The translations under genes were made by a program, and so were the position numbers. The notes beneath the pieces were generated by a model. That model ran no database searches. It saw only the letters and a program-made list of their open reading frames with translations, and was not told the DNA's origin. A DNA stretch of 14,638 nt from Desulfuromonas sp. SDB (GTDB taxonomy: Bacteria; SDB-A), in contig LKUE01000328.1 in assembly GCA_001412365.1 (NCBI GenBank), positions 1 to 14,638 of the forward strand, in the 5' to 3' direction. Every line of letters begins with the position of its first letter. Position 1 is the stretch's first letter. Positions 48 through 13,962 of this stretch are shown here, in pieces.

Positions 48-1091
48 TTATTCAGGAGGCCATAAATTTAAAAGATGCTTGTTCTCTCCCGGATCAAGCC
101 ACATCACCGGTAAACCCTCCGGATCAAAGGTGATCAGACAATACTTGGGAGGAGCTATGTACAGAGCAATATCTCCAGGATTTCCTCTTTGCTGAGCTAA
201 CCAGGAGCTGTCCGAATCATCTTCCTTGACCAAATAGGAAGGTTTAAAGCTACCCTGGGGATATTCGTAATATGAAATCATGACATAGGGTTTTTCCACT
301 TCCACACTATCCCGGGGTACTTCTCTTCTCCTGCGCACTTCAGGTTCGGGGGGATTAGGCCATATAAATTTAATTTCAACAGAACCCAGGTTTGAGAAAT
401 TTTGGGGAAGCTCGGGAATATTACTGACTAAATATTCAGCAATGGTAGCATTGAACAACCATCCTGAAAACTCAGCTTGATCTTCGGGAGGTACTGTATC
501 CACATAAAGCAAGGTTGAATTTTCAGTCATGGAAAATTCAAGGTTGGGAGTTTTTTCACCACTTTCCCAAGCAGAATAAGTAATCTTATGTATAGAGGGA
601 TCGTAGGAGATAATTACTGAATCATCCAAAACCCCGGGAATACCTTCTAATCCCGCTTGTTCCCAAAGCTGGGCAATTTCAGGATCAGGTTTGTACATCC
701 ACTGACCTGCATCGGTGGTATCCCAGTAAAGTTCCACTGGATATCTACTCTCCACCAATGAAGATTCCGCAACAAAAACATTAAGATTTGCTTGACCTTC
801 ATTATAAGGATTTATCAGTGCTCCTTTAATGTTATTGGTGACATCTTCTAAACTGGTGGGATAGGTTATATCATAACTCCAGCTATGCCTGACCGGATCC
901 CAGTTCACTGTAGAATGTTGGAAAATATATCTTTCTATGCCTGCTCGAGCTGTATAAAGATTGGTCCTGGCTCTGCGAAACTTTAACTCTTCTTTCATCT
1001 CCTGTTGCTGGGGTAAAATTATTATAGCTACTAATACAATAGCCATCACTATAATTAAAATATCCAGCAGAACCCTCACAGTTTTACTCAT
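48..1091 (-). CDS. Hypothetical membrane-anchored protein (N-terminal signal anchor / uncleaved TM helix followed by a ~320-aa extracytoplasmic domain)
   Basis: The ORF-track start at 1130 is rejected in favour of the ATG at 1089..1091 (MSKTVRV...). That ATG is preceded by a perfect SD GGAGGAGAA (reverse complement of 1092..1100). A hydrophobic stretch LLDILIIVMAIVLVAIIIL follows directly after the start. No recognisable catalytic motif was found. Confidence 0.7.
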   Translation of the reverse strand: MSKTVRVLLDILIIVMAIVLVAIIILPQQQEMKEELKFRRARTNLYTARAGIERYIFQHSTVNWDPVRHSWSYDITYPTSLEDVTNNIKGALINPYNEGQANLNVFVAESSLVESRYPVELYWDTTDAGQWMYKPDPEIAQLWEQAGLEGIPGVLDDSVIISYDPSIHKITYSAWESGEKTPNLEFSMTENSTLLYVDTVPPEDQAEFSGWLFNATIAEYLVSNIPELPQNFSNLGSVEIKFIWPNPPEPEVRRRREVPRDSVEVEKPYVMISYYEYPQGSFKPSYLVKEDDSDSSWLAQQRGNPGDIALYIAPPKYCLITFDPEGLPVMWLDPGENKHLLNLWPPE

Positions 1092-1191: not shown

Positions 1192-3594
1192 TCATTCTAC
1201 AAAATTGATCGGAATTACGGTTTGAGACTGAACCGGTGTTCCATTTTCGGTGGCGGGATTGAATTTTGCACCCATTGCTGCTCCCCGGGCTTCATTATCC
1301 GCAAGCGGATTTCCCGAAGATCCTACCACTTCTGCAGAAATTACTGATCCATCTGACCCTATAGTAACCCGGACAAAAGCCCTGGTTATACCCATTCCCT
1401 GAGCTGCATCGGGAACTCGAGCCTGGGGTAAACTGATGGGGGTGGGATTGGTCCTCACCACTTCTTGAGAAGTAGTGGCTACTGTATCCGGAGTTGTTGC
1501 CACTGTATCCTCCGGAGTTTCTTCTCCTACTGTTCCTCCATTGGAAGGTCCAGTAGTTACTTCCACCGGAGTTTCTTCAGTAATAGTTCCTTCAGAGGTA
1601 ACTTCGGCAGTAGTTTCTCCTCCTTCGATAACTGTTTCCGTTCCGGTTCCTACTGCTTCTTCCAACAGGGCACCGGTGGCGGCAAGCTCAATAGGCAGCT
1701 CGGTAGTATCTCCCGCTTCTTCTGCAACTTCCAGGGTTTCCGGCTCTACTTCGGGCAAGGAGTCAACAATAGTATCCACCGCTAACGTGTCTGCTTCTGC
1801 TACTACCAGAGTTTCTTCAACTACCGGCGTTTCCTCCTCCACTACCGCCACTGCAGTAGTGGGAACTCCGGTACCGGAATAATATATCTCCTGAAGGTTA
1901 AATGAAGCCAATCTGGTTTCTACCGGTTCACCTGCATAATTGATGTCAATAGCATTTAACTCCGAAGGAACAAATAGTAGAGTAAACGGCTGTTCATTAA
2001 GTAATATATTCTGCATTTCATCCCAGGCTTTTTTAGCTTCTCTGCGGTCCAGAGTAGCGGTAGCATTGATAAGGGAATCTATCTGATCTGATGAAAATGA
2101 AGCTAGATTCAACTTACCTCCGGTACCAAATACCTCTTTGGGGTGAACAGACTGCTCACCGACCAAAGCGTAGTCTAAAATATACCCGGAATATTCTGCC
2201 GTTTCTAATTTCTCCTGCACCACTCTAAGATCGGGAACTACCATGGTGGAACAGACAATTCCAATCTCCTCAAGCTGTTGACCTATCCGGTTAAGCACCA
2301 GCGCTCCAGAGCTGTTTAAGGCAACTAGTTTCAGAGTAATCACCTCTCCTTCATACATCCGGGCAAATATTGAATCGGAAGGAACGGTGTCCAATGCCAA
2401 CCTGCCCCTGGGTCTGGCTTCCAAAGTTTCCACTTTCCAGGCAGTGTAAAGCCATTTTCTGTCTTTCAATCCCAGAGAATCTAAAAGACTGTTAGCTAAA
2501 GATAAATCGTATTGGGGAGGATTTAGAGATGAATCATAAGCCCAAAACTCAGGGGAAAGCGGGGTAGCCGGTATCCTGCCTTCTCCCCTCAACAATTCCT
2601 CCACCAGTTGTTCTTTGTCAATAGCTAAACTTAAAGCATACCTAAATCTGGCATTACCCAACAAATCATCATTGGTAGCCCATCCGATTGAATAATATCT
2701 TCTGCCGGCATCATTTAGCTGGACATTAACATGCTCAAAATCAGCTAATATATCTGCATATGATGAAAATACTCCTAAAGCCAGGTCAATATTTTGATAT
2801 CTCAATGCTTCAACCATATCCCGGGAAGAACTGAATGATTTAAAAATCAAAGTATCCAGAGGAGGTTGATTCCGGTAATATTCCGGATTAGAAGTGATAA
2901 CAATTTCGTCTCCATGATAATCAGGCACCCTCCAGATAAATGCTCTGCGGGTATCTAAAATGAAAGGTCCATTGGATACAGTTTTAGATGGATTCATTCC
3001 AAATCCACTCATCACCAATGAACTGACTGAATTTACATTTACCAATAAATGTTTGGGTAGTGGGTAAATGTCGCTATCAAATAATTCAGTGGAATAAGGT
3101 TCGGTGAAATTAACTTTCACCGTGTATTTATCCAAGACTTCCACCGATGAAATCATATCGAAAAATTTTCTGAAGGGAGACTCAATCTCAGGATTATTTA
3201 ATATAAAATCAAAAGTAAATTTAACATCTTCTGCGGTTACATCTTCCCCATCCGACCATTTTATGTCTTTTCTAAGGTAATATATAATCGCACTGAGATC
3301 CTCAGAAAACTCCCATCTCTGAGCTAAAACCGGCACTAATTGCCCATTTTCATCTCTTCTTATCAATGGTAAGAATAACTGCTCAGAAATTGGATTTTTA
3401 CCAGTAAACAGAGGATGAAGGGGAACAAATAAATCGGGGATATCAGTTCCGGTAACCCCGATGATCATAGTTCCTCCCTGCTCGCCCTGAATTGGTTCCA
3501 CTTTGGAAGTGGTACAACTGCTGGCGCTTATAACAACCAGCAACAGTCCCAAGATAAATAATCTAAATTTTGAGTACTTTAGTACAGCATACAT
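1192..3594 (-). CDS. Lipoprotein with family-5 solute-binding domain (OppA/DppA-like, SBP_bac_5) fused through an acidic Thr/Glu/Val/Pro-rich linker to a C-terminal TonB_C domain
   Basis: There is a signal peptide with a probable lipobox (...VVISASS|C). The SBP_bac_5 signature region reads RWEFSEDLSAIIYYLRKDIKWSDGEDVTAEDVKFTFD. A low-complexity linker spans roughly aa 565-715. The C-terminal ~85 aa read FVRVTIGSDGSVISAEVVGSSGNPLADNEARGAAMGAKFNPATENGTPVQSQTVIPINF, which matches the TonB C-terminal consensus (G.V.v.f.I..dG.V....V..SSG...LD.aA..A.....F.P....G.PV......PI.F). A GAGGTGG SD lies upstream of the ATG at 3592..3594. Confidence 0.85.
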   Translation of the reverse strand: MYAVLKYSKFRLFILGLLLVVISASSCTTSKVEPIQGEQGGTMIIGVTGTDIPDLFVPLHPLFTGKNPISEQLFLPLIRRDENGQLVPVLAQRWEFSEDLSAIIYYLRKDIKWSDGEDVTAEDVKFTFDFILNNPEIESPFRKFFDMISSVEVLDKYTVKVNFTEPYSTELFDSDIYPLPKHLLVNVNSVSSLVMSGFGMNPSKTVSNGPFILDTRRAFIWRVPDYHGDEIVITSNPEYYRNQPPLDTLIFKSFSSSRDMVEALRYQNIDLALGVFSSYADILADFEHVNVQLNDAGRRYYSIGWATNDDLLGNARFRYALSLAIDKEQLVEELLRGEGRIPATPLSPEFWAYDSSLNPPQYDLSLANSLLDSLGLKDRKWLYTAWKVETLEARPRGRLALDTVPSDSIFARMYEGEVITLKLVALNSSGALVLNRIGQQLEEIGIVCSTMVVPDLRVVQEKLETAEYSGYILDYALVGEQSVHPKEVFGTGGKLNLASFSSDQIDSLINATATLDRREAKKAWDEMQNILLNEQPFTLLFVPSELNAIDINYAGEPVETRLASFNLQEIYYSGTGVPTTAVAVVEEETPVVEETLVVAEADTLAVDTIVDSLPEVEPETLEVAEEAGDTTELPIELAATGALLEEAVGTGTETVIEGGETTAEVTSEGTITEETPVEVTTGPSNGGTVGEETPEDTVATTPDTVATTSQEVVRTNPTPISLPQARVPDAAQGMGITRAFVRVTIGSDGSVISAEVVGSSGNPLADNEARGAAMGAKFNPATENGTPVQSQTVIPINFVE
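1452..1902 (-). repeat. Imperfectly repetitive low-complexity coding segment (Thr/Glu/Val/Ala/Pro-rich linker of the 800-aa protein)
   Basis: Degenerate repeated DNA words such as ccactgtatcc-ggagtt and ctactgtatccggagtt are visible. The translation is a T/E/V/P-rich acidic linker, and the shadow ORFs on the opposite strand are typical of low-complexity DNA. Confidence 0.55.
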
Positions 3595-3678
3595 CTTACC
3601 ACCTCACTATTTAATATTTTTTAAATAAATAAGGATCAGTTCATCTTTAATTAAATAGCTCATATTAATGATTCCATC

Positions 3679-3906
3679 CTATTTATCTTGCTTGGTTTCC
3701 CCTTTGTACTTATCCCCATATTTCTTCATAAATCTTTCTACCCGTCCAGCGGTATCCACAAACTTCTGTTTACCCGTAAAATAGGGGTGGCATGCAGAAC
3801 AAATTTCAACGGAAAAAGAGGGACGGGTTGAGTAAGTATCAATGACATTTCCACATGCACAAGTAATTTTACATGGCTGGTATTCAGGATGAATTCCTTT
3901 TTTCAC
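3679..3906 (-). CDS. rpmE: 50S ribosomal protein L31, zinc-binding type (Cys16, Cys18, Cys36, Cys39)
   Basis: MKKGIHPEY...C.C...[22 protein letters not shown] is a near-textbook L31 sequence. The gene has a GTG start, with SD AGGAGGAAAA immediately upstream (reverse complement of 3907..3916). Confidence 0.92.
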
Positions 3907-4082: not shown

Positions 4083-5657
4083 TCAATTGCTCATTGAGGA
4101 GAGGAACTCTTCATTATTTTTAGTTTTGCCTAATTCTCTCTTAATCGTTTCCATTGCTTCCACCGGAGTCATGTCGCTGAGAAATTTTCTTAATACCCAC
4201 ACTCTATTTAATTCTTTTTCCGAAAGTAATAATTCTTCTCTTCTCGTACTTGATTTATTTACATCAATAGCCGGAAAAATTCTCCGGTCAGCCAGTTTTC
4301 GATCCAGAACTATTTCCATATTACCAGTACCTTTGAACTCTTCAAAAATCACTTCATCCATTCTGCTTCCAGTTTCAATTAAAGCGGTGGCTAATATAGT
4401 TAAACTCCCTCCTTCTTCAACATTTCGGGCTGCTCCAAAAAATCTCTTGGGTTTGTGCAAAGCCAGGGAATCTACTCCTCCCGACAACGTTTTTCCGGAA
4501 TGGGGTATCACTGCATTATGAGCTCTGGCTAAACGGGTAATGGAATCCAGTAAAATTACCACATCTTTTTTCATTTCAACCAATCTTCTCGCTTTTTCCA
4601 GAACAATGTGGGCAACCTGAGTATGGTGATCAGCTGGTTCATCAAAGGTTGAGCTTATCACTTCAGCGTTAACCGATCTCTGCATGTCGGTCACTTCTTC
4701 AGGTCTTTCGTCAATCAGCAAAACAATGAGAATACATTCAGGATGATTAGCGGTAATTGAATTGGCAATTTTTTGAAGGATAATGGTCTTTCCGGCTTTA
4801 GGAGGAGAAACAATTAAACCTCTTTGCCCTTTTCCAAGGGGAGCAAGTAAATCAATAATTCTCATGGAAATATCATTTTTGTCATCTCTTTCCAATTTCA
4901 GCCTTTCACTGGGATACAAGGGAGTGGAGTCATTAAACGCCAATCTTTTTTTGACAATTTCCGGTTCCTGTTCATTAACTGAAACAATGGAAACCAGGGC
5001 ATCATTTTTCTCATTAGATTTTGGAGGTCTGGCATAACCACAAACTGTATCCCCAATTTTCAAGCGATGTTTATCAATTAGGGAACGGGTGACATAAACA
5101 TCGTAAGGGCTGAGAGTGTAATTGTACTTAGGATATCTTATAAAACCATAACCATTGACAACGTCCAGAACTCCGGTGATCTTTCTGAGCACTTCTTTTT
5201 TCTTGGGAACCATTACTTTGGCTTGCTTTTCTTCAAATTCCATAGATTCAGTTTTCACCGGGGCAGGTTTCTCCGGAGAGGGGTCACTGCTGTCCTGAAT
5301 CGGTTTTTCCATTTCAGTTTGAACCGGGTCAGTGCTTTCAAACTTATCAGTTTCCTCTTGATTGGTGGGCATTTCGCTATCCGCGGATACCTCTGTTTCA
5401 GATTTATGGTTGTCTGATTCCTTATCTTGTTGATCAACAGCTTTATCTGTTTCTGATTGATCTACTTGATCATCTGGTTCGGTTTGGGCAGATGATTTTG
5501 TTGAATTTTTACCCCTGGTTTTACGAGTTGTTTTAGTTGCGGTTTTTTTCACTGAGTTTTTTTTATTTTTTTTATTATCTGCATTTACCGAAGATTCTTC
5601 TGAATTTTCTGTTAGTTCATCTTGTTCTAAAATAACATCCTTATCTACATTTTCCAT
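4083..5657 (-). CDS. rho: Transcription termination factor Rho with ~150-aa disordered acidic/Lys-rich N-terminal extension
   Basis: The OB-fold RNA-binding region reads [14 protein letters not shown]...[27 protein letters not shown]. Walker A is [17 protein letters not shown], and the C-terminal half ([17 protein letters not shown]...[11 protein letters not shown]...[45 protein letters not shown]) is collinear with E. coli Rho. The start is assigned to the ATG at 5655..5657 (MENVDK). The ORF-track GTG at 5667..5669 abuts the AGGAGA SD with zero spacing, so it is unlikely to be used. Confidence 0.93.
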
Positions 5658-5830
5658 TGATTTTAGCACTCTCCTTTAAGGTTTAATGAATTGAAATCTC
5701 ATCTCTGGCCTTAGTTTTACATTTGCTGGGATTGGTTCCAGAAATTTTAAGTTTATATTCTACTTAATTAAGTTTATAAATCAACAGCAATTTGTCAATA
5801 GGTATTTAAATATTCCTGGTTAAATTTTAT
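5658..5830 (-). promoter_or_regulatory. Long 5' leader / promoter region of rho
   Basis: A ~170-nt non-coding gap lies upstream of rho with an SD at its 3' end. In characterised bacteria rho autoregulates through Rho-dependent attenuation in its own leader (established knowledge). No specific element was verified here. Confidence 0.35.
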
Positions 5831-6598: not shown

Positions 6599-6711
6599 TA
6601 TTATTAATTTATAGTGATGTTATCAAAAGTTTTTACTTTATTTATCACTTATTTGCGTATATATTATTTTTGTTATTATCTATCAAACTGTCAAGAAAAA
6701 CAGGAGGCAAA
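6599..6711. promoter_or_regulatory. Divergent intergenic/promoter region with inverted repeat AGTGAT-N25-ATCACT and direct TATCAAA repeats
   Basis: Seen directly: the sequence is ...tatAGTGATgttatcaaaagtttttactttatttATCACTtatttgcgtatatattatttttgttattatctatcaaactg... followed by AGGAGG at 6702..6707 and the ATG at 6712. A candidate -35/-10 pair is TTGCGT...TATTAT. It lies between minus-strand and plus-strand blocks that diverge from each other. Confidence 0.4.
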
Positions 6712-7236
6712 ATGGGAGATCTTGGAAATAAATTGAGAAATGCAGGAGATTGGCTGGCCAAGCATATCCCTGGCTTTGCAGGTTATGTAAAAAGAGAAGA
6801 ACGCCGGAGAGCGGATAAAATTTTCCGAGATTACCTAGTGGGAAAATTAAGGGATGCGAAATCCCGTCTCAGCAGAGCAACTGTAAAAATAACCGATTCC
6901 GGAGATTTAAATGCATTGAAAACTCTGTCCAGGGTTGAAGCAAAGTATGAAACCGTCACTGACCGGTTGAGATTAGCTGATTACGGCTACACCGGCTGGT
7001 TCGATACAGTTCAAATTGATTTTGATGAATTAGACAAACTTTATGAATTTGATGTTAATCTCACCATGTCCGTGGACCAGATCTGTAAAATTGCCCAGGA
7101 TATGGAAGCAGGCTCTTCTGAAGAAGCATCAAAATTAATCATGACCTTAAATCAAAGTTTGGATGAATTAGATAAAAAACTTAAACAAAGAGATAATCTA
7201 TTCATCCAGGAATTAAATTTCAACAGGAGTGAATAA
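6712..7236 (+). CDS. Hypothetical soluble, predicted alpha-helical protein (174 aa), translationally coupled to the downstream SPFH protein
   Basis: The start is assigned to the ATG at 6712 (MGDLGNK), which has AGGAGG 5 nt upstream. The ORF-track TTG extension 6670..6711 is rejected. Its stop overlaps the next start (TAATG at 7234..7238). The protein is rich in charged and coiled-coil-like residues. Confidence 0.75.
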   Translation: MGDLGNKLRNAGDWLAKHIPGFAGYVKREERRRADKIFRDYLVGKLRDAKSRLSRATVKITDSGDLNALKTLSRVEAKYETVTDRLRLADYGYTGWFDTVQIDFDELDKLYEFDVNLTMSVDQICKIAQDMEAGSSEEASKLIMTLNQSLDELDKKLKQRDNLFIQELNFNRSE

Positions 7237-8429
7237 TGGCATTTGGCATGAAATTAATGGATTTAATTGAATATCATGATCCCTCCGGGGAGGAAATGGT
7301 TCATAAAATACCGGAGCAGGGATCCGGAGAAACAAAACTGGGCAGCAGATTGATTGTACGGGAAGATCAACAGGCGGTATTTTTCAGAGACGGGCAAGCC
7401 CTGGATGTATTTGGTCCGGGAAAACATGTTCTGACCACTGCCAACCTACCCCTTCTCAACAGATTGGTGGGAGCGGCTTTTGACGGCAACACTCCATTCC
7501 GTACCGAGGTAATATTTGTCAATACTAAAACTTTCACTAACGCAAAATGGGGCACCCCTGAACCCATTCCCTTCAGGGACAAGGAGTTAAAGTTAATCAG
7601 AATAAGGGCGTTCGGCGCATATTCCTTGAGAATAATCGAAGCCCAGCTTTTTGTTAATAAAATCGTTGGCTCCCAAGGCATCTACAGAAGAGAAGAAATT
7701 GAAGATTTTCTCAGAAGTATTATTATAGCCCGGTTTACTGATTTTCTGGGAGAAGTGGCGTCCAAGGGACTGTCAATTTTTGATTTAGCCAGCAATTACG
7801 ATGAAGTTGCAGTGGGAGGAAAAGCCAGGATTCAACAGGATTTCGAAAAATATGGACTGGAGATACCTGATTTTCTGATCCAGGCAATTAGCTTACCGGA
7901 AAAAGTCCAAGAAATGATAGATGAAAGAGGAGCAGTGGAAGCGATGGGGGGCTTAGGCGGATTTACTCAATTCCAGGCAGCCAAGGCGATGAGAGAAGCA
8001 GCCAGCAATGAAGGTGGTGGTGCGGGAATGGGCATGGGTATGGGTGCAGGTTTGGGCATGGGAATGATGATGCCGGGAATGATCAATAATGCCTTCCAGC
8101 AATCTCAGCAGCAAAATCAGGGAGGGGGAGGAGCAGCGGCTATGATTAATTGTCCCCACTGTAATACTCCTGTCCCCGCAAATTCAAAATTTTGTCCGAG
8201 TTGCGGCAAACCGGTGCAAGTGGGCACACCTTGTCCTAAATGTGGTCAACCAGTGCCATCCGGCTCTAAATTTTGTCCCCACTGTGGAAATGAAATGAAA
8301 ACTGGAGCGGTGTACTGTTCTAACTGCGGTAATGAAATTCCCCAAGGTTCAAAATTTTGTCCCCATTGCGGCAATTCCATGGGACAGAATCCTCCTTCCC
8401 AAGATCAGCCTTCTCAAGATACAGAGTAA
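7236..8429 (+). CDS. SPFH/Band-7 family protein (COG4260 / Band_7_1-like) with Gly/Met-rich linker and three tandem C-terminal zinc ribbons
   Basis: The N-terminal ~250 aa (GSRLIVREDQQAVFFRDGQALDVFGPGKHVLTTANLPLL...EVIFVNTKTF...) fit the COG4260 stomatin/prohibitin-like family exemplified by B. subtilis YdjI. The linker reads GGGAGMGMGMGAGLGMGMMMPGM...QQSQQQNQGGGG. Three CPxCG-x(6-9)-SKFCPxCG modules follow. An AGGAG SD lies 6 nt upstream. Confidence 0.85.
   Translation: MAFGMKLMDLIEYHDPSGEEMVHKIPEQGSGETKLGSRLIVREDQQAVFFRDGQALDVFGPGKHVLTTANLPLLNRLVGAAFDGNTPFRTEVIFVNTKTFTNAKWGTPEPIPFRDKELKLIRIRAFGAYSLRIIEAQLFVNKIVGSQGIYRREEIEDFLRSIIIARFTDFLGEVASKGLSIFDLASNYDEVAVGGKARIQQDFEKYGLEIPDFLIQAISLPEKVQEMIDERGAVEAMGGLGGFTQFQAAKAMREAASNEGGGAGMGMGMGAGLGMGMMMPGMINNAFQQSQQQNQGGGGAAAMINCPHCNTPVPANSKFCPSCGKPVQVGTPCPKCGQPVPSGSKFCPHCGNEMKTGAVYCSNCGNEIPQGSKFCPHCGNSMGQNPPSQDQPSQDTE
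8150..8400 (+). repeat. Three tandem ~83-nt coding repeats, each encoding one double-Cys-pair zinc-ribbon module
   Basis: The DNA word (c/a)aaattttgtcc(c/g) recurs at about 8184, 8268 and 8352. The protein repeats are CPHCNTPVPANSKFCPSCG, CPKCGQPVPSGSKFCPHCG and CSNCGNEIPQGSKFCPHCG. Confidence 0.7.
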
Positions 8430-8434
8430 AAATT

Positions 8435-8950
8435 ATGCGTTTACATTTACTTTTTTTATTTATTTTTCTCATCCCCGGGCTGGTATGTTCCAGCGCCCTG
8501 GAGATATCCACAGGGGGAGTGTTAATATCCTCTGACTACTTCAGCTCCGGACAGACTATTGACTTCAAATACAGTCATTCCCTTAATTTATTGGGATTCC
8601 AACCTCTGGCTAAATTTTCCTTTATCCAGGCTCAGGGTTCTCAAAGACCGGATCTTCAGTTGCATTCCTATCAATTTTACACCGGCTTGAAAAGAAATTT
8701 GTTCAATCCCACTCCCCGAAGTGAAATTGTATTTTCACTCTTACCAGGATTAAGCCATACTACCATATCCACTGAGACAGCCAGTGAAAGTTCAATAATT
8801 CCGTGGGTTGGTTGTGCCCTGGGCTATCAGTTTAAATTTTTTGAACCAGTTAAACTGGTTGCGGACATCGCTGGCAATTATTCTCTGGATAAAAGCAACA
8901 CCTTATTTTTCGGACTGACTCTGGGAATTGAATTAAACAAAGGATTTTAA
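8435..8950 (+). CDS. Small outer-membrane beta-barrel protein (171 aa; OmpW/OMP_b-brl-like), secreted
   Basis: The start is assigned to the ATG at 8435 (MRLHLLFLFIFLIPGLVCSSA), a signal peptide lying 5 nt after the upstream stop. The ORF-track extension back to 8357 overlaps the previous gene out of frame. The protein shows alternating hydrophobic beta-strand patterns and a C-terminal ...GIELNKGF ending in Phe, which is the classic OMP C-terminal signature. Confidence 0.7.
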   Translation: MRLHLLFLFIFLIPGLVCSSALEISTGGVLISSDYFSSGQTIDFKYSHSLNLLGFQPLAKFSFIQAQGSQRPDLQLHSYQFYTGLKRNLFNPTPRSEIVFSLLPGLSHTTISTETASESSIIPWVGCALGYQFKFFEPVKLVADIAGNYSLDKSNTLFFGLTLGIELNKGF

Positions 8951-9607
8951 ATGTTGAGAATTATCTTAATCATATCATCACTGGCAGTAATAGTTTTATC
9001 AGCAGGATGCCAGAGGGAAACCAACTTATTCAGGATAAACGAGGACTATTTCCCCACTCCGGATACCGGAAGTTATTGGACTTATTCCAACCTGCAAACT
9101 AATGACCACATTACTGTCTCCGTAAATGAAATTGATTTATTTTATGAAGGTAGATACTGTTATCAATGGATCTGGAATAATGAAAATATATACCTGTGGA
9201 AAGATGACAATAATATATATTCCCATCAATTAAGACAGAAATACTTCGGAGGAGACGGCTGGGATGTTGAAAACCGGTGGGCTCCTCTGTTCAGATTGCC
9301 ATTTTTAGACGGGGATCAATGGCAGGATAATTTTCATAATTCAATTAATATTTTGGGAGATATTTTTGAAATTGAAGTAAATACTGAAGTTAAAATTAGT
9401 TTACAGGGAGATGTAACTACCCCCGCCAGTAATTTTTCCAATTGTTATAAAATTACCTATATCCGCAATATACAAGAACAATCAGCATTATTAGGCAATT
9501 TAAATGAAGCTGATTCTGTTTATTACTGGTTAGCCCCTGGTGTGGGAATAGTAAAATTCCAAGACAGTACCGGAGTTTACAGTTTAACTGACTATCAATT
9601 TAATTAA
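8951..9607 (+). CDS. Lipoprotein, hypothetical (218 aa)
   Basis: There is a signal peptide with lipobox LSAG|C. The ATG immediately follows the upstream TAA. The protein is Trp/Tyr/Asn-rich with no recognised domain. Confidence 0.75.
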   Translation: MLRIILIISSLAVIVLSAGCQRETNLFRINEDYFPTPDTGSYWTYSNLQTNDHITVSVNEIDLFYEGRYCYQWIWNNENIYLWKDDNNIYSHQLRQKYFGGDGWDVENRWAPLFRLPFLDGDQWQDNFHNSINILGDIFEIEVNTEVKISLQGDVTTPASNFSNCYKITYIRNIQEQSALLGNLNEADSVYYWLAPGVGIVKFQDSTGVYSLTDYQFN

Positions 9608-11097
9608 TGCCCCTCTTTCTACTGGCAATATGGGAATTAATCTATATTGGATTAATACTAACCGTTAAAAAAAACTGGTTTAACCTACCTCTCCAGTACA
9701 AATTAAATAAGCACAAGCTGTTGCTTTTATTTGCTCCAGCTTTATTCTACCTTTTAATTCCCCTGATGCAATATTACCGGTTTTCTGAGCTTTACCTGGC
9801 ATCCTTCGTCTTTCTAAATGTCTACCTGTACTTTATTATCTTTGAAGATTACCGGGCTCTGGCTTCCTGGTGCGGAGTAATCGCCATTTTCATTATAGGG
9901 ATTTTAAATTTAGATAAAGCTTTTGGGGTTGAAATTATTGAACAGGAAGTGCTGTGGAAAGGAGTCAACTGGAATGTAATCGGTATTTTCACCGGAACCA
10001 TGATCGTGGCAGATTTATTCATGAAATCCAAAGTGCCTGAATTACTGGCAGAGATATTTATCGCCCGGGCTTCTACGGTGGGATTAGCCATAATTATTGT
10101 ATCCGCTTTTTCAGGATTGATTTCCGCAGTTTGTGAAAATGTCGCCACCGTACTGATTGTCGCCCCCATCGCCTTTAAAATTGCCAAACGGTTAAAAGTA
10201 TCCCCTGCTCCATTTTTAATTGCCATTGCCATTGCCTCTAATTTAGAAGGGGCAGCCACCTTAATCGGAGATCCCCCCAGCATCATTTTAGCCGCCAACA
10301 CCAATATGACCTTCAATGAATTTTTCTGGTTCCTGGGAAGACCATCTTTATTTTTTGCAGTGCAGCTAGGGGCAGTGGGAGGTATTTATGTGCTGTACCT
10401 GCTGTTTAAAAAATATAAGCAGCCCGTTGAAAAAATTGAAAAAACTGAAATCATATCCTGGATTCCCACCTATCTGTTGGGATTATTAACTTTAGGTCTT
10501 GCTCTTCTATCCATTTTCAATCTGGGATTTGAGATTACCGGTGGACCTTTATGCATGGTCATTGCAGTGGGGGGATTAATTTGGTGGAAATTCAAAATTT
10601 CCATCAAGGGAACTATCAGAAAAATAATCAGGGAATTTGATTTTGAAACAGTATTCTTGCTCATGGGGATATTTATTTTGGTAGCGGGACTTTCCCATTC
10701 CGGAGTAATTGTCAATGTGGCTAAATTTTTAAGCCAGCAGGCAGGTAATAATTTCTTATTGACTTTTATTTTTCTCACCTTGATGAGCATGATTTTTTCA
10801 GCATTTATTGACAATGTGCCTTACGTAACCGCCATGATTCCCATAAGTTTAACTATGGCTTTGGAGATGGGATTAAGTCTTCCCCAGACCTATGCCCTGG
10901 CTTATGCCATTGCCATCGGCGCTTCCATCGGCGGCAATATTACTCCTATCGGAGCTTCTGCTAACATCGTAGCAGTAGGATTGCTAAAAAAAGAAGGATA
11001 TCGGACATCCTTTATCGAATTTGTAAAAATCGGTCTTCCCTTTACCTTGGTAGCTACCCTCATCGCTTCTGCCTTTATCATCTTATTTTGGCACTAA
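9607..11097 (+). CDS. ArsB/NhaD-superfamily permease (CitMHS / anion-permease-like) with ~110-aa extra N-terminal TM region
   Basis: Two internal repeats of the superfamily hallmark are present. The first is [56 protein letters not shown], to be compared with ArsB SAFLDNDATVLL..PI...[30 protein letters not shown]. The second is [18 protein letters not shown]...[22 protein letters not shown]. The whole protein is polytopic. The start overlaps the upstream stop (TAATG). Confidence 0.85.
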   Translation: [496 protein letters not shown]

Positions 11098-11103
11098 TAT
11101 TTA

Positions 11104-11132
11104 TTGATATCAGGTGAATTATTTATTACAAT
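11104..11132 (+). promoter_or_regulatory. Sigma70-like promoter TTGATA-N17-TACAAT in the only sizeable gap of the plus-strand block
   Basis: Seen directly: TTGATA at 11104..11109, a 17-nt spacer, and TACAAT at 11127..11132. It is followed by the palindrome ACAATTGT (11137..11144) and the inverted repeat TAACTG-N11-CAGTTA (11145..11167), then SD AGGAGGAAGG and the ATG at 11200. The promoter consensus of this lineage is not known to me. Confidence 0.4.
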
Positions 11133-11199
11133 GAGAACAATTGTTAACTGTACTATTTTGTCAGTTATAAAATTTATTACCTTAACAGGAGGAAGGTAG

Positions 11200-13137
11200 A
11201 TGATGAAAAGATTTGTCGTAATCTGCAGTGTTCTTTTTATCTCCAGCTCTCTGCTAGCAGTGGTCAATCTTGATCATTCCACCGGATTATTCAGAATTCC
11301 GGTAGCTGGTAATCAGGGAAAAGGACAGTTCACTTTTGATGTAAGATACATGGTTAGTTATTTCGATTTTGAAGATTCATTCCCCACCACCTTGTATTAT
11401 TATGATACTACCACAGTGGGAGGGATAACCGTAATCGACACTACCATTGTAGATTCAACCATTCATACCGGTGATGCTATTGTAAGTATGACTATTCCCT
11501 TTGGAATGTCCTACTGTATAACTGATCACGACGAGATTGGACTGGGCTGGGTTTACTACTATGATGCAGTATTGACCCAGAGTATCCACATACGCCCGGA
11601 TAATCCCGGTTACATAGACAACGATTCCCTGGGGCATTATCCCTATTTCGGCAGGGCAAACGTGGTCAGTTCAGGCATTGGCGATCTCACCTTATTCTAC
11701 AAGAGGACCTTTGACTTCAACGAGAAGTTCTCCATGGGAGCACTAGCCGAGATCATTGTACCTACTGGCAGTGAAAGGGAAGAGAATTTTCCAGCACGCA
11801 CTGAACCGGACACCTTAAGACAAAGTGATGAAAACATTGAACGGGACGGAGGAGTATTCAGAGATTTCCGTCAAGGATTTGGAGGAGGAATTAGTTTGAT
11901 GGGTACGATGAAACCCACTCAGGAATCACCCATTGCCTTCACCGGTCTTCTGGGTTACCGATATCACGGTTACTCCGAACATCAGATATTAAATCTGGGG
12001 TTAGGAACCCAGTTCAAGGGTAAATACTTTGAACCTTATGTAGAACTATCCGGAGATTTTTATCTCAATGATGACAGCATTGCCAATCCGTTCAGGGTTA
12101 CTCCGGGAATAAGGTTTACCTCATTACCGGGGCTTTTCTTAGACATTGCTTACGATTTCAGACTTACCGAAAACAATCAGGAAAATGTAGAAAGTTATGG
12201 CACTTATCCCGATTGGCAGGCGAGTATAGGTTTCGGATGGACTCATGATTTCATGCCTCCCAAACCCAAATTAGCAACCATTGCGGGAACGGTTATAGAT
12301 GCGGATACCAAGCTGCCCATTCCCGGGGCAATACTAAGTTTTTCCGATACTCTGATTCCCAATATCACCACGGATGAATTTGGAATATGGATGGTTTCCG
12401 GCATTGAAGCGCCCATAGATTTAATCGTTGAGGCTGACGCTGAAGGATACCTGGGCAGCGACCCCATTCCCATGATTCTTTATCCCGGAGATCTCATCGA
12501 AGACATTACTATCGCCTTGAATGAACAAATTATTCAGGGCTCCATCAAAGGGATTGTTTACGAATTAGGAGCACAGGGAGACATTACTCCTATCGTAGCT
12601 ACCCTGAATATCTCCGGAGACACCACCGCAGTATTGCCCACCAATGAATTTGGAGAATTTGAAATAATCCTTTCTCCAGGAAGCTACAGCATTGAAGCCA
12701 GTGTACCCGGATATATTGCCCAATCCAAAGATTACAGTTTAGCCCAGGATCAAATCTTAACCACTGAATTTCATCTGCTCAAGGAAAGAGCGGAAATAGT
12801 ATTCCACAATATCAATTTTGAAGTTAATAAATCAGATATACTACCTGAATCCTATCCCATCCTCGACCAGGTGGCTGCAATTCTCAGGGACAATCCTTCT
12901 GTGCGTATTGAAATTCAAGGGCATACTGACAGTGATGGAAGCCGCTCTTACAATCAGAGTCTTTCCGAAGCCAGGGCAAATTCAGTTAGAAGCTATCTGC
13001 TCAACACCGAAGGGATTTCTCCGGACCGTTTAATTGCACGCGGATACGGCGAAGACCGGCTGGCCATATCTCCGGAAAGATCGGCTGAGGATAAGAGATT
13101 TAATAGAAGAGTTGAATTTCACGTATTAGAAAATTAA
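11200..13137 (+). CDS. OmpA-family outer-membrane protein: N-terminal beta-barrel region, two carboxypeptidase-regulatory-like (CarboxypepD_reg) beta-sandwich domains, C-terminal OmpA/MotB peptidoglycan-binding domain
   Basis: The signal peptide reads MMKRFVVICSVLFISSSLLA. The two CarboxypepD_reg-like segments are IAGTVIDADTKLPIPGAILSF...GIWMVSGIEAP and IKGIVYELGAQGDITPIVATLNISGDTTAVLPTNEFGEFEIILSPGSYSIEASVPGY. The OmpA_C motif is NINFEVNKSDILPESYPILDQVAAILRDNPSVRIEIQGHTDSDGSRSYNQSLSEARANSVRSYL...RRVEF. Confidence 0.88.
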   Translation: MMKRFVVICSVLFISSSLLAVVNLDHSTGLFRIPVAGNQGKGQFTFDVRYMVSYFDFEDSFPTTLYYYDTTTVGGITVIDTTIVDSTIHTGDAIVSMTIPFGMSYCITDHDEIGLGWVYYYDAVLTQSIHIRPDNPGYIDNDSLGHYPYFGRANVVSSGIGDLTLFYKRTFDFNEKFSMGALAEIIVPTGSEREENFPARTEPDTLRQSDENIERDGGVFRDFRQGFGGGISLMGTMKPTQESPIAFTGLLGYRYHGYSEHQILNLGLGTQFKGKYFEPYVELSGDFYLNDDSIANPFRVTPGIRFTSLPGLFLDIAYDFRLTENNQENVESYGTYPDWQASIGFGWTHDFMPPKPKLATIAGTVIDADTKLPIPGAILSFSDTLIPNITTDEFGIWMVSGIEAPIDLIVEADAEGYLGSDPIPMILYPGDLIEDITIALNEQIIQGSIKGIVYELGAQGDITPIVATLNISGDTTAVLPTNEFGEFEIILSPGSYSIEASVPGYIAQSKDYSLAQDQILTTEFHLLKERAEIVFHNINFEVNKSDILPESYPILDQVAAILRDNPSVRIEIQGHTDSDGSRSYNQSLSEARANSVRSYLLNTEGISPDRLIARGYGEDRLAISPERSAEDKRFNRRVEFHVLEN

Positions 13138-13149
13138 TGAGGTGATACC

Positions 13150-13962
13150 ATGAGAATTAAAATTGCATGCTTATTATTAATTATTATCACGGTATCTCTT
13201 GTAGCTGAGGTGCCGACAAGGATATTGACATTTGAAACCGGGTATATTTTACCTCATCGCCATTCAAAAATCGGGATTGGAGATGCCGCAGTGGGATTAT
13301 ACGATTATTTCCAAATTGGTTCTAACACCACTATGGATATGATCCTGGTTCCCAATATCAAGGTAAAAGCTGGATACTACTTCGGGGAAAAATTCCCCCT
13401 TTCCATTGCCATGGGCGGTCTTTACTGGGATTTTCTGGGATTTTCCCCCCTGGTTGCCCAGTCCTCATCTGAACTGCTCACTGACGAATTAACCGGAACT
13501 CTGGCGGGTAAACTTTACGGATATTCATTTTACTGGTCCGCCAGCTACGGAGTGGTTCCGGGATTAGCAGACGTTCATATTAACTACAAAGTAGATCATA
13601 CCGTATCCGATATCAGAGGTATTGGTGATTTCACCATTGATCCCCGTGAATATGTAGATAACACTGACATCTACATCGTCAGCGCAGAAGTGTGGGGAAA
13701 CAACAAAGGGTGGCACCATACCATGACTGCAGGAAATAATTTAACTGCCGGTTTATTCAATTTCTATACCGAACTTGGTTATGATTTTGAGATGGAAAAA
13801 CTTAAATGGGGAATTGGATTAGGAGTTCCCGCGGGAGGCAACGGAGAAATTCTGTTGGGAGTTGTCGGTCCCGGAGTAGAGTTTGAAGATATAAATTCCG
13901 GAGTCATTCCGGTTCTAGCAGCCACATGGACCTTTGGCTACGGGGAGGAAGAAAATGAATAG
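13150..13962 (+). CDS. Secreted beta-rich protein, possible outer-membrane beta-barrel (270 aa), hypothetical
   Basis: A GAGGTGA SD lies 5 nt upstream. The signal peptide reads MRIKIACLLLIIITVSLVA. The protein is Gly/aromatic-rich with alternating strand patterns (KLKWGIGLGV, VIPVLAATWTFGYG) and ends in an acidic GEEENE tail rather than a terminal Phe. Confidence 0.65.
   Translation: MRIKIACLLLIIITVSLVAEVPTRILTFETGYILPHRHSKIGIGDAAVGLYDYFQIGSNTTMDMILVPNIKVKAGYYFGEKFPLSIAMGGLYWDFLGFSPLVAQSSSELLTDELTGTLAGKLYGYSFYWSASYGVVPGLADVHINYKVDHTVSDIRGIGDFTIDPREYVDNTDIYIVSAEVWGNNKGWHHTMTAGNNLTAGLFNFYTELGYDFEMEKLKWGIGLGVPAGGNGEILLGVVGPGVEFEDINSGVIPVLAATWTFGYGEEENE

What the first reader, a model, noticed from the sequence alone, without database searches (positions are those of the whole stretch)
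1192..3594. Oligopeptide-binding-type SBP domain fused to a TonB C-terminal domain in one lipoprotein
The N-terminal ~520 aa are a canonical family-5 periplasmic solute-binding protein, the ABC-transporter receptor class that includes OppA/DppA. The last ~85 aa are an unmistakable TonB_C domain. A ~150-aa acidic T/E/V/P-rich spacer separates them, resembling the periplasm-spanning Pro-rich rod of TonB.

Canonical TonB proteins are anchored by an N-terminal TM helix that couples to ExbB/ExbD. Here the anchor is a lipid-modified Cys (or signal peptide), and the cargo is a ligand-binding domain. This suggests a tethered binding protein that docks onto TonB-box-bearing outer-membrane receptors, or a decoy or adaptor. 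Such an adaptor could link TonB-dependent peptide uptake across the outer membrane to ABC import, which would be plausible for an amino-acid/peptide-fermenting lineage.

No exbB/exbD or opp permease genes lie within the window. I am not aware of a characterised example of this architecture.
Basis: partly seen in the sequence, partly recalled or inferred. Interest (0 to 1): 0.8.

Follow-up and report, generated by a model that had tools for sequence, protein, structure and literature searches.

The report
Solute-binding lipoprotein with TonB tail
One real gene encodes a lipid-anchored peptide-type binding protein joined by a long floppy linker to the outer-membrane-docking domain of TonB; this fusion is conserved in a small group of uncultured bacteria (WOR-3 and TA06), has never been studied, and may physically link outer-membrane and inner-membrane nutrient import.

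Summary
Pfam scores SBP_bac_5 (E 5e-57) and TonB_C (E 6e-12), both above the curated cut-offs. AlphaFold gives a confident OppA/AppA-like fold, a disordered linker of about 146 aa and a confident C-terminal domain. The best PDB matches of that domain are all TonB C-terminal domains.

The fusion is not an assembly artefact. Twenty-eight homologues from independent assemblies (23-60% identical) share the same continuous architecture and an invariant lipobox cysteine. An exhaustive search of 1.84 billion representatives found only 16 clusters with it, from WOR-3 and TA06. TonB_C is the most conserved part.

The canonical TonB membrane helix is absent. No opp permease or exbBD gene lies within 10 kb in any of 11 contexts. 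The only adjacent TonB-dependent transporter is a B12-riboswitch-controlled BtuB-like gene.

Function is inferred. The most likely reading is an unenergised, lipid-tethered binding protein that docks on TonB-box proteins of the outer membrane. That would be a covalent version of the reported TonB-FhuD and TonB-BtuF contacts. This is a new variant of known kinds and of moderate interest.

The parts
1192..3594 (-). Complete CDS (800 aa plus stop) of the SBP5-linker-TonB_C lipoprotein. It is identical to NCBI 'hypothetical protein APR63_01995 [Desulfuromonas sp. SDB]' (a MAG).
   Evidence: ORF list and translation; 100% identical database protein P0001.
3599..3605 (-). Shine-Dalgarno-like GAGGTGG, 5 nt upstream of the ATG.
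   Evidence: Read directly from the sequence.
3514..3594 (-). Lipoprotein signal peptide, aa 1-27, ending in lipobox SASS-C27. Cys27 would be the lipidated first residue of the mature protein.
   Evidence: PROSITE-type lipobox pattern matched in 18/28 family members, near-matches in the rest. The Cys is invariant in 28/28. Lipidation itself is inferred.
1879..3513 (-). Family-5 (cluster C, Opp/Dpp/Nik-type) solute-binding domain, aa 28-572. It starts only about 12 residues after the lipid anchor.
   Evidence: Pfam SBP_bac_5 E 5e-57. AF2 model at high pLDDT. Foldseek PDB best hits are AppA 1xoc (E 2e-39, TMt 0.85), NikZ 4oet and DppA. phmmer against PDB: AppA E 1e-31.
2353..2460 (-). Clade-specific insertion in the SBP domain (aa 379-414), predicted as a long beta-hairpin. 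It is present only in the window's subclade (P0001-P0006).
   Evidence: Alignment A1 columns about 385-420; DSSP strands 379-393 and 399-414 in the model.
1441..1878 (-). Disordered acidic linker, aa 573-718 (146 aa; T/E/V/A/G/P-rich). In the other subclades the equivalent segment is 77-121 aa and E/K/P- or A/P/T-rich, like the Pro-rich rod of TonB.
   Evidence: pLDDT below 50 for aa 580-708. Composition and length in 28 homologues. Lowest conservation of the three parts, mean pairwise identity 0.22. One weak 18-nt tandem repeat at 1795-1833.
1195..1440 (-). TonB C-terminal domain, aa 719-800. The canonical 'YP' motif is replaced by 'VP' (RVP) in this protein.
   Evidence: Pfam TonB_C 46 bits, TIGR01352 45.8 bits. 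The AF2 model of the domain alone has pLDDT 88.9. Foldseek PDB ranks 1-14 are all TonB or TonB-homologue (FusB) C-terminal domains; the best is P. aeruginosa TonB in complex with FoxA, 6i97_D (TMt 0.73, rmsd 2.5 A, 30% id). TolA ranks lower. It is the most conserved part of the family, mean pairwise identity 0.41. YP/VP comparison.
48..1091 (-). Downstream neighbour (347 aa from the ATG), membrane-anchored, of unknown function. It always follows the fusion gene in this subclade. A possible partner, unproven.
   Evidence: No Pfam hit. Only 5 homologues, all from the same WOR-3 subclade; two come from contigs of the same length as those of fusion homologues P0003 and P0006. The same position occurs in L002/L003.

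Best explanation
SHOWN. This is one genuine gene for an exported protein with a conserved lipoprotein signal. The protein is built from two modules. The first is an Opp/App/Nik-type family-5 solute-binding domain placed directly after the lipid-anchor cysteine. The second is the periplasm-spanning linker plus C-terminal domain of a TonB protein. The module that defines a working TonB is missing: the N-terminal transmembrane helix that couples to ExbB/ExbD. The fusion arose once and is kept as a small family in the candidate phyla WOR-3 (including the SDB-A-like clade of this window and Hydrothermales) and TA06.

INFERRED MECHANISM.
1. The protein is held on the periplasmic face of the inner membrane by its lipid, as lipoprotein SBPs usually are.
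2. The binding domain serves an ABC permease encoded elsewhere in the genome.
3. The 80-150-residue linker, the same length class as the TonB rod, lets the TonB_C domain reach the outer membrane.
4. There TonB_C binds a TonB-box-like strand of an outer-membrane protein by beta-strand augmentation, without transmitting force.
5. The result would be a passive trans-envelope tether. It would hold the binding protein, and so the inner-membrane importer, under an outer-membrane transporter so that imported substrate is captured at once.

This would be a covalent form of the non-covalent TonB-FhuD and TonB-BtuF contacts reported in E. coli. The ligand is unknown; a peptide is the most likely class.
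For: Architecture:
- Pfam and NCBIfam hits for both domains lie above the curated cut-offs.
- The AF2 model has two confident domains and a disordered linker.
- Fold matches are to AppA/NikZ/DppA for the N-terminal part and to TonB C-terminal domains, several solved in complex with transporters, for the C-terminal part.

Not an artefact, and a single origin:
- 28 homologues share the same architecture.
- A neighbour-joining tree of the SBP part alone puts all fused proteins in one clade.
- A close SBP-only relative outside the fused clade (P0255) is followed by an OppB-like permease start, 47% identical to E. coli OppB residues 1-34. The binding module therefore derives from ordinary ABC-transporter receptors.

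Lipid anchor: the Cys is invariant in 28/28.

TonB ancestry of the tail:
- In most subclades the linker is E/K/P-rich (E 12-26%, K 10-24%, P 6-22%) and 77-121 aa long.
- The YP motif is kept in all clades but the window's.

Functional constraint: TonB_C is the best conserved segment (0.41, against 0.35 for the SBP and 0.22 for the linker).

Host biology:
- A family member's genome encodes a TonB-dependent transporter with a canonical TonB box, PEIVVTAKR.
- In Hydrothermales the gene sits in a tight co-directional array behind two M42 aminopeptidases and an M23 peptidase, which fits peptide use.

Precedent: TonB-FhuD and TonB-BtuF interactions, cited in PMC3813593, refs 55 and 56.
Against: - No conserved gene neighbour links the protein to a TonB-dependent transporter, exbBD or an opp/dpp permease. 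There are 11 contexts in at least 7 different arrangements.
- The one adjacent transporter is BtuB-like and controlled by its own cobalamin riboswitch (88 bits), so the adjacency is probably coincidental.
- The Asp that anchors the peptide alpha-amino group in OppA (D419) and DppA (D436) is not conserved. Only about 60% of members have an acidic residue there. The DppA Arg383 equivalent is absent.
- The window's own subclade has lost the Tyr of the YP motif and has the weakest TonB_C score in the family (46 bits, against 60-73 bits).
- An unenergised TonB_C that occupies TonB boxes should compete with the real TonB.
- Which membrane carries the lipid anchor is unknown. No member has Asp at +2, which in E. 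coli would send the protein to the outer membrane.
- Whether these genomes have a canonical TonB, ExbBD or an orphan OppBCDF could not be checked.
Confidence: 0.4

Rival explanations
1. Envelope-architecture protein. The SBP domain binds a cell-wall component, for example a murein stem peptide as MppA does. The TonB_C domain binds an outer-membrane protein. The lipoprotein would then be a structural or housekeeping cross-link or spacer between membrane, wall and outer membrane, not a nutrient-uptake component.
For: - The gene is stand-alone in every context seen and sits among housekeeping genes: rho-rpmE in the window clade, ribD/aspS in Hydrothermales, and the yidC/rnpA region in L090.
- An M23 (LytM-type) peptidase lies directly upstream in Hydrothermales.
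- A GH3 gene lies nearby in L093.
- MppA is among the structural matches.
- The canonical peptide-binding Asp is not conserved.
- From memory, SBP5-fold lipoproteins with non-transport roles exist (mycobacterial LpqW).
Against: - The best sequence and fold matches are transport receptors (AppA, NikZ, DppA), not MppA.
- The nearest non-fused relative is in an opp-like operon.
- No binding data exist.
- The M42 aminopeptidases in the same array are cytoplasmic peptide-degrading enzymes, which fits nutrition better.
Confidence: 0.2
2. Regulator or decoy. The TonB_C domain competes with the true TonB for TonB boxes, or for another TonB_C partner. Its availability is gated by ligand binding to the SBP domain, so that the periplasmic substrate level throttles outer-membrane transport.
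For: - TonB_C is highly conserved and TonB-like in fold.
- There is no energy-coupling helix.
- The protein is encoded apart from any transporter operon, as expected for a global modulator.
Against: - There is no evidence of an intramolecular docking site.
- The linker is poorly conserved and disordered, which argues against an allosteric connection.
- No precedent was found in the literature searches.
Confidence: 0.12
3. A working, energised TonB variant. The lipid anchor and SBP domain replace the transmembrane helix, and the protein still receives force from an ExbB/ExbD-type motor, for example through periplasmic contacts with ExbD.
For: - The linker plus TonB_C module has canonical composition and length in most subclades.
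- At least one host lineage has a TonB-dependent transporter.
Against: - The signal peptide ends in an invariant lipobox Cys and would be cleaved.
- The window protein's signal peptide contains no histidine, so no SHLS-type motif is possible there; other members were not checked for it.
- By established knowledge, the TonB helix sits inside the ExbB pentamer and is essential for coupling.
- No exbBD gene lies within 10 kb in any of 11 contexts.
Confidence: 0.05
4. Artefact: two separate genes (an SBP and a TonB) merged by a frameshift, a mis-assembly or a read-through in the low-complexity segment.
For: - One family member (L095) is split by a stop codon in the linker into a 515-aa SBP ORF and a 115-aa TonB_C ORF.
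- G+C rises from about 0.34-0.46 over the SBP-coding part to about 0.50 over the linker and TonB_C.
Against: - 28 independent homologues down to 23% identity have one continuous ORF. P0004 is on 24 or more contigs and the window protein on 3.
- The split L095 TonB_C ORF has no signal peptide of its own, so it is the broken form.
- The G+C rise follows from the T/E/V/A/G/P codon content of the linker.
Confidence: 0.01

Closest known systems
TonB (E. coli TonB; P. aeruginosa TonB C-terminal domain, PDB 6i97/6fip/1u07/2gsk)
   Same: - The C-terminal domain has the TonB_C sequence signature and fold.
- It is preceded by a long, non-globular, periplasm-spanning-type linker that is E/K/P-rich in most family members.
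- The overall topology is membrane anchor, then rod, then TonB_C.
   Different: - There is no N-terminal transmembrane helix or SHLS motif; instead there is a cleaved lipoprotein signal peptide.
- A 545-aa ligand-binding domain is inserted between anchor and rod.
- No exbBD linkage was found.
- In the window's clade the linker is T/E/V-rich and acidic, and the YP motif is VP/LP.
Family-5 (cluster C) ABC-transporter binding proteins: B. subtilis AppA (1xoc), C. jejuni NikZ (4oet), E. coli DppA/OppA; lipoprotein forms as in Gram-positives and Borrelia OppA (the last from memory)
   Same: - The fold matches (TMt 0.84-0.87 to AppA, NikZ and CcNikZ-II).
- The SBP_bac_5 signature region WEFSEDL...KWSDG..VTA.DV and the invariant Arg318 are present.
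- It has a lipoprotein signal.
- The nearest non-fused relatives lie in opp-like operons.
   Different: - It carries a C-terminal linker and TonB_C.
- It is never next to permease or ATPase genes (11 contexts).
- The peptide-anchoring Asp (OppA D419, DppA D436) is not conserved, and the DppA Arg383 equivalent is absent.
- All NCBIfam equivalog scores are far below their cut-offs.
Non-covalent TonB-periplasmic binding protein complexes (TonB-FhuD, Carter et al. 2006; TonB-BtuF, James et al. 2009; cited in PMC3813593)
   Same: The concept is the same: TonB's periplasmic part and a binding protein are brought together at the transporter so that substrate is handed on. The fusion would be a 'Rosetta-stone' version of this contact (inference).
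   Different: - Those binding proteins belong to a different structural class (cluster A, siderophore/B12).
- Their contact is transient and involves an energised, helix-anchored TonB.
- Here the link is covalent and the anchor is a lipid.
Other TonB_C-domain fusion proteins (from memory: BlaR1/M56-peptidase-TonB_C proteins of Bacteroidota; Myxococcus GltG/GltJ). Seen here: the NCBIfam model for the receptor MxcH matches the TonB_C domain at its positions 2-83, and the 5x TonB_C protein P0307
   Same: They show that TonB_C is a portable docking module that evolution attaches to other periplasmic or membrane proteins.
   Different: None of these carries an ABC-type solute-binding domain or a lipoprotein anchor. 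No paper in the searched library names the SBP_bac_5 plus TonB_C combination.

Membership tests
TonB family (energy transducer TonB) | C-terminal TonB_C domain (sequence signature and fold) | tested here: met
   Pfam PF03544 46.2 bits (cut-off 24.6) and TIGR01352 45.8 bits (cut-off 27.1). Foldseek ranks 1-14 are all TonB or TonB-homologue (FusB) C-terminal domains, best TMt 0.73 and rmsd 2.5 A.
TonB family (energy transducer TonB) | N-terminal transmembrane helix (SHLS motif with His20) that couples to ExbB/ExbD | tested here: not met
   The N-terminus is a signal peptide ending in a lipobox with an invariant Cys (28/28), and the window protein's hydrophobic segment contains no His. The helix would be removed on maturation (inference from the lipobox).
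TonB family (energy transducer TonB) | Extended Pro-rich periplasm-spanning linker | tested here: inconclusive
   A disordered linker of 146 aa is present, but in this protein it is T/E/V-rich with only 7% Pro. In the other subclades it is E/K/P-rich with up to 25% Pro.
TonB family (energy transducer TonB) | Conserved YP motif at the start of the C-terminal domain | tested here: not met
   The window protein has RVP. The five closest homologues have VP or LP. All 22 other members keep YP.
TonB family (energy transducer TonB) | Functional or genomic association with ExbB/ExbD and TonB-dependent transporters | tested here: inconclusive
   No MotA_ExbB or ExbD gene lies within 10 kb in 11 contexts. 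One BtuB-like transporter is adjacent in L089, but under its own B12 riboswitch. Whole genomes could not be searched.
ABC-transporter substrate-binding proteins, family 5 (Opp/Dpp/Nik type) | SBP_bac_5 sequence signature and bilobate cluster-C fold | tested here: met
   Pfam PF00496 194 bits. Foldseek: AppA 1xoc E 2e-39, TMt 0.85; NikZ, DppA and OppA all match at probability 1.00.
ABC-transporter substrate-binding proteins, family 5 (Opp/Dpp/Nik type) | Export signal (signal peptide or lipoprotein anchor) | tested here: met
   Lipobox with invariant Cys27.
ABC-transporter substrate-binding proteins, family 5 (Opp/Dpp/Nik type) | Encoded with, or shown to serve, OppBCDF-type permease and ATPase genes | tested here: not met
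   There is no BPD_transp_1 permease or Opp-type ATPase within 10 kb in any of 11 contexts. Orphan SBPs that use a distant permease are common, so this does not exclude the function. The non-fused relative P0255 does precede an OppB-like gene.
ABC-transporter substrate-binding proteins, family 5 (Opp/Dpp/Nik type) | Ligand-contact residues of peptide binders (Asp that binds the peptide alpha-amino group: OppA D419 / DppA D436) | tested here: inconclusive
   In alignment A4 the window protein has Q at this column with E next to it. Across 28 members the position is acidic in about 60% and otherwise N/Y/L/T/K/F/S. The alignment is uncertain by 1-2 residues in the window clade.
Bacterial lipoproteins | Lipobox [LVI][ASTVI][GAS]C-type motif at the end of a signal peptide | tested here: met
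   The PROSITE PS51257-like pattern is matched by the window protein and by 18/28 members. The Cys is invariant in all. Acylation itself is not testable with these tools.

The most novel reading that the evidence does not exclude
The protein is a new kind of passive trans-envelope coupler. A lipid-anchored ABC-transporter receptor is permanently wired, through a TonB-derived rod and docking domain, to TonB-box-bearing outer-membrane transporters. Outer-membrane and inner-membrane import steps would then be physically aligned without an ExbBD motor. This would be the first natural 'Rosetta-stone' evidence for the long-proposed role of TonB as a scaffold that positions periplasmic binding proteins under their transporters.
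Probability: 0.3. Interest if true: 0.75.

Novelty: new variant of a known kind. Interest (0 to 1): 0.5.

Why it matters
TonB_C and family-5 binding proteins are both textbook modules. Joining them in one lipoprotein, with the energy-coupling helix removed, separates the docking function of TonB from its force-transducing function in a natural protein.

If the tail does bind TonB boxes, the family gives a simple experimental handle on an old, unsettled idea: that TonB helps position periplasmic binding proteins beneath outer-membrane transporters (TonB-FhuD, TonB-BtuF). It would also describe how two poorly known candidate phyla, WOR-3 and TA06, organise nutrient uptake across two membranes.

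If the tail does not bind TonB boxes, the family is still a clear case of TonB_C reused as a general periplasmic docking module. It is also a warning that automatic 'TonB family protein' labels can hide non-TonB proteins.

Tried and rejected
1. Frameshift or chimera. Rejected on the basis of 28 continuous homologues. The one split member (L095) lacks a signal peptide on its second ORF and nests inside the fused clade.
2. Guilt by association. Eleven contexts were examined (window, L001-L007, L089-L093) and no conserved partner emerged. The TonB-dependent transporter next to P0242 looked promising, but it carries its own cobalamin riboswitch, so I do not count it as functional linkage. A CitMHS/ArsB-type transporter recurs within a few kb in three contexts (window, L090, L093) but is absent in the close relative L002. 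I treat it as residual synteny.
3. TonB_C-only profile search of the 5.8-billion-protein set. It returned only short proteins and fragments, with nothing about canonical TonB in WOR-3. Uninformative.
4. Scan of species-representative genomes. Only one full-length fused locus was recovered (L007, WOR-3 bin77 chromosome), so the taxonomic range comes instead from the exhaustive profile search and cluster names.
5. Mapping OppA/DppA ligand residues. The result was inconclusive.
6. Promoter and terminator scan around the gene. Nothing above shuffled background.
7. AFDB fold search. The library was not available.
8. Downstream 347-aa neighbour. Homologues exist only in the same subclade and no family was assigned; a structure was not attempted.
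9. Literature. No paper was found on this architecture or on TonB or peptide transport in WOR-3/TA06.


Full report
**1. What is in the sequence**

The finding's coordinates are exact, but the gene is on the minus strand. Window 1192-3594 holds an 800-codon ORF, preceded by GAGGTGG 5 nt before the ATG. It lies 84 nt downstream of rpmE (3679-3906). rpmE in turn follows rho (4083-5669) on the same strand.

Pfam finds SBP_bac_5 at aa 86-468 (E 5.1e-57, 194 bits) and TonB_C at aa 728-798 (E 6.4e-12, 46.2 bits, cut-off 24.6). NCBIfam adds tonB_Cterm (45.8 bits, cut-off 27.1). It matches several Opp/Nik/Dpp binding-protein equivalogs, all far below their cut-offs.

An AlphaFold2 model built on 64 sequences has mean pLDDT 81. 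It shows:
- a confident bilobate domain, about aa 28-575;
- a segment with pLDDT below 50, aa 580-708;
- a confident C-terminal domain, aa 710-800.

The spacer (aa 573-718) is 146 aa: T 21%, E 19%, V 15%, A 9%, G 8%, P 7%. Over aa 573-722, the segment measured, the net charge is -33. The N-terminus ends in ...LLLVVISASSC27, which fits the PROSITE lipobox pattern.

**2. Both domains are what they seem**

Foldseek of the full model against the PDB gives B. subtilis AppA with a bound nonapeptide (1xoc, E 2e-39, TMt 0.85). Next come NikZ, H. pylori DppA, GbpA, NikA, MppA and OppA, all at probability 1.00. phmmer against PDB sequences agrees (AppA E 1e-31).

The C-terminal 100 residues were modelled alone (pLDDT 88.9). 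Ranks 1-14 of the fold search are all TonB or TonB-homologue (FusB) C-terminal domains. The best is P. aeruginosa TonB bound to FoxA, 6i97_D (TMt 0.73, rmsd 2.5 A, 30% identity). TolA domain III ranks lower. By sequence, the same TonB chains are the only PDB hits (E 0.013).

**3. The fusion is real, ancient and rare**

A word-indexed search of 5.8 billion proteins returned an identical NCBI protein: 'hypothetical protein APR63_01995 [Desulfuromonas sp. SDB]', a MAG. It also returned twelve homologues at 27-60% identity that all carry both Pfam domains. Some are annotated 'TonB family protein' in candidate division WOR-3 or Candidatus Hydrothermales.

An exhaustive HMM search of 1.84 billion cluster representatives, using a profile of these 13 proteins, found only 16 clusters (at 50% identity) with the full architecture, scoring 1009-407 bits. 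Nearly everything else among the 150 best hits is an ordinary binding protein without TonB_C; one of them (P0253, see below) is a split family member. One cluster contains fragments named candidate division TA06.

All 28 aligned members share these features:
- a hydrophobic signal peptide with an invariant Cys;
- an SBP domain starting about 10-15 residues after the Cys;
- a 77-148-aa low-complexity linker;
- a TonB_C domain.

Mean pairwise identity is 0.35 for the SBP part, 0.22 for the linker and 0.41 for TonB_C. The TonB_C domain is thus under at least as much constraint as the binding domain.

A neighbour-joining tree of the SBP part alone places all fused proteins in one clade, with the TA06 member basal. 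SBP-only proteins fall outside (a rough tree, no support values). One close outside relative, P0255, is followed by an ORF 47% identical to E. coli OppB residues 1-34. This shows that the binding module descends from ordinary ABC-transporter receptors.

P0253 looked SBP-only, but it is followed by a 115-aa ORF consisting of a Pro-rich linker and TonB_C with no signal peptide. It nests within the fused clade, so it is a broken copy rather than a two-gene ancestor. An assembly or frameshift origin for the window's gene is therefore excluded.

**4. Origin of the tail**

Outside the window's subclade the linker is E/K/P-rich (for example E 23%, P 17%, K 17% in P0010) or A/P/T-rich. The domain begins with the canonical P-x-YPE motif of TonB. 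Linker and domain together thus look like domains II and III of a TonB.

The window's subclade (P0001-P0006) is the derived one:
- a longer, acidic, T/E/V-rich linker;
- VP or LP instead of YP;
- the lowest TonB_C score;
- a 36-residue beta-hairpin insertion in the SBP domain.

**5. What is missing**

The defining N-terminal helix of TonB, which sits in the ExbB pentamer, is replaced by a cleavable lipoprotein signal. The window protein's signal peptide contains no histidine.

Eleven genomic contexts were examined. None has MotA_ExbB/ExbD genes or an Opp/Dpp-type permease or ATPase within 10 kb. The arrangements are:
- rho-rpmE-[gene]-347-aa unknown, in the window clade;
- M42-M42-M23-[gene]-ribD, in Hydrothermales;
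- MscS-[gene], or a 200-aa unknown followed by [gene];
- YfhO-[gene];
- an ABC_ATPase-family (PF09818) gene followed by [gene];
- a TA06 arrangement next to a giant kinase.

In one context (L089) a 654-aa TonB-dependent transporter lies divergently 360 bp upstream. It has a perfect TonB box, PEIVVTAKR. However, the intergenic region holds a cobalamin riboswitch (88 bits) that belongs to that transporter. I therefore read it as a BtuB-type gene that happens to be adjacent. It does prove that a host lineage of this family has TonB-dependent transport.

**6. Ligand**

The family keeps the general SBP5 signature and the universally invariant Arg318. The Asp that binds the peptide alpha-amino group in OppA/DppA is acidic in only about 60% of members. 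The dipeptide-carboxylate Arg of DppA is absent. The ligand is therefore open. An oligopeptide is the default, given the AppA-like fold and, in Hydrothermales, the operon-like array with two M42 aminopeptidases.

**7. Mechanism (inferred)**

The arrangement is lipid anchor, then SBP, then an 80-150-residue flexible rod, then TonB_C. This copies the topology of TonB, with a binding protein in place of the motor-coupling helix. The rod has the length class of the E. coli TonB periplasmic linker (about 115 residues; from the E. coli sequence).

The simplest reading has three elements:
- the lipid sits in the inner membrane;
- the binding domain serves a permease encoded elsewhere;
- TonB_C reaches the outer membrane and docks by beta-strand augmentation on a TonB-box-like strand, as in the complexes that are its best structural matches.

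Without a motor the protein cannot pull a plug. It would act as a passive tether that co-localises the receptor and importer with an outer-membrane transporter. Reported TonB-FhuD and TonB-BtuF interactions (PMC3813593, refs 55 and 56) are the nearest precedent.

I give this reading about 0.4. The rivals are:
- an envelope-structural role, 0.2;
- a ligand-gated competitor of TonB, 0.12;
- an energised TonB variant, 0.05;
- an artefact, 0.01.

The remaining probability is 'something else'. The unknown membrane of residence is the main weakness. No member has Asp at +2, and many have a K/E-rich stretch after the Cys.

**8. Comparison and novelty**

The protein fails the membership test for a functional TonB, because it has no coupling helix. 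It passes for TonB_C-domain proteins, for the family-5 binding-protein fold and for lipoproteins.

No paper in the searched library mentions the combination. A recent survey of periplasmic force transducers (PMC12204202) has no occurrence of 'solute' or 'SBP' in its main text. Public annotation calls members 'hypothetical', 'TonB family protein' or 'peptide/nickel transport system substrate-binding protein'.

I class it as a new variant of known kinds: a rare, phylogenetically restricted domain architecture. It is of moderate interest (0.5). The architecture is certain and unusual, the function is unproven, and TonB_C is known to be a promiscuous module.

Noticed in passing
window 5220-5669 (-), N-terminus of rho (4083-5669): Rho is 528 aa. 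A disordered, K/E/D/T/S-rich N-terminal extension of about 150 aa precedes the Rho_RNA_bind domain (aa 165-237). The region shows a strong AT skew.
   Followed up: partly
window 48-1091 (-): A 347-aa protein with a single N-terminal hydrophobic helix that resembles a pilin alpha-1 helix, but without a prepilin cleavage motif. It has no Pfam family and only five homologues. All are in the same WOR-3 subclade and all lie directly downstream of the fusion gene.
   Followed up: partly
window 6670-13962 (+): A conserved block that is syntenic with relative L002: two small unknown proteins, an SPFH/Band-7 protein with three C-terminal zinc ribbons (7236-8429), a DUF3108-like protein, and a 645-aa CarboxypepD_reg-OmpA protein (11200-13137). 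The window has an extra CitMHS transporter (9607-11097) that L002 lacks.
   Followed up: no
L089 9708-9899 (-) and 7678-9642 (-): A cobalamin riboswitch (Rfam RF00174, 88 bits) sits in front of a 654-aa BtuB-like TonB-dependent transporter with TonB box PEIVVTAKR. The pair is divergent from a member of the fusion family (P0242).
   Followed up: yes
L095 104-2043 (+): A high-G+C family member is split by a stop codon in the linker into a 515-aa SBP ORF and a 115-aa Pro-rich-linker/TonB_C ORF without a signal peptide. This is either a pseudogene or a sequencing error.
   Followed up: partly
protein P0307: A 643-aa protein made of five tandem TonB_C domains (Pfam 338 bits, 5 stretches). It surfaced through the TonB_C part of the profile.
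   Followed up: no
family N-termini, e.g. P0241 CAKKEEA, P0242 CRKGEEE, L007 CAKREEK: Many members have a K/E-rich stretch directly after the lipobox Cys. From memory this resembles the lipoprotein export signals of Bacteroidota that send lipoproteins to the cell surface. The window protein (CTTSKVEP) lacks it. No member has Asp at +2.
   Followed up: no
L001, L005, L006 around 7200-10000 (+): In Hydrothermales the fusion gene is the fourth gene of a tightly packed, partly overlapping array: two M42 aminopeptidases and an M23 peptidase precede it.
   Followed up: partly
window 1200-1950: G+C rises to about 0.50 over the linker and TonB_C coding part, against about 0.34-0.46 over the SBP part. 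This is explained by T/E/V/A/G/P codon usage. One weak 18-nt tandem repeat lies at 1795-1833.
   Followed up: yes
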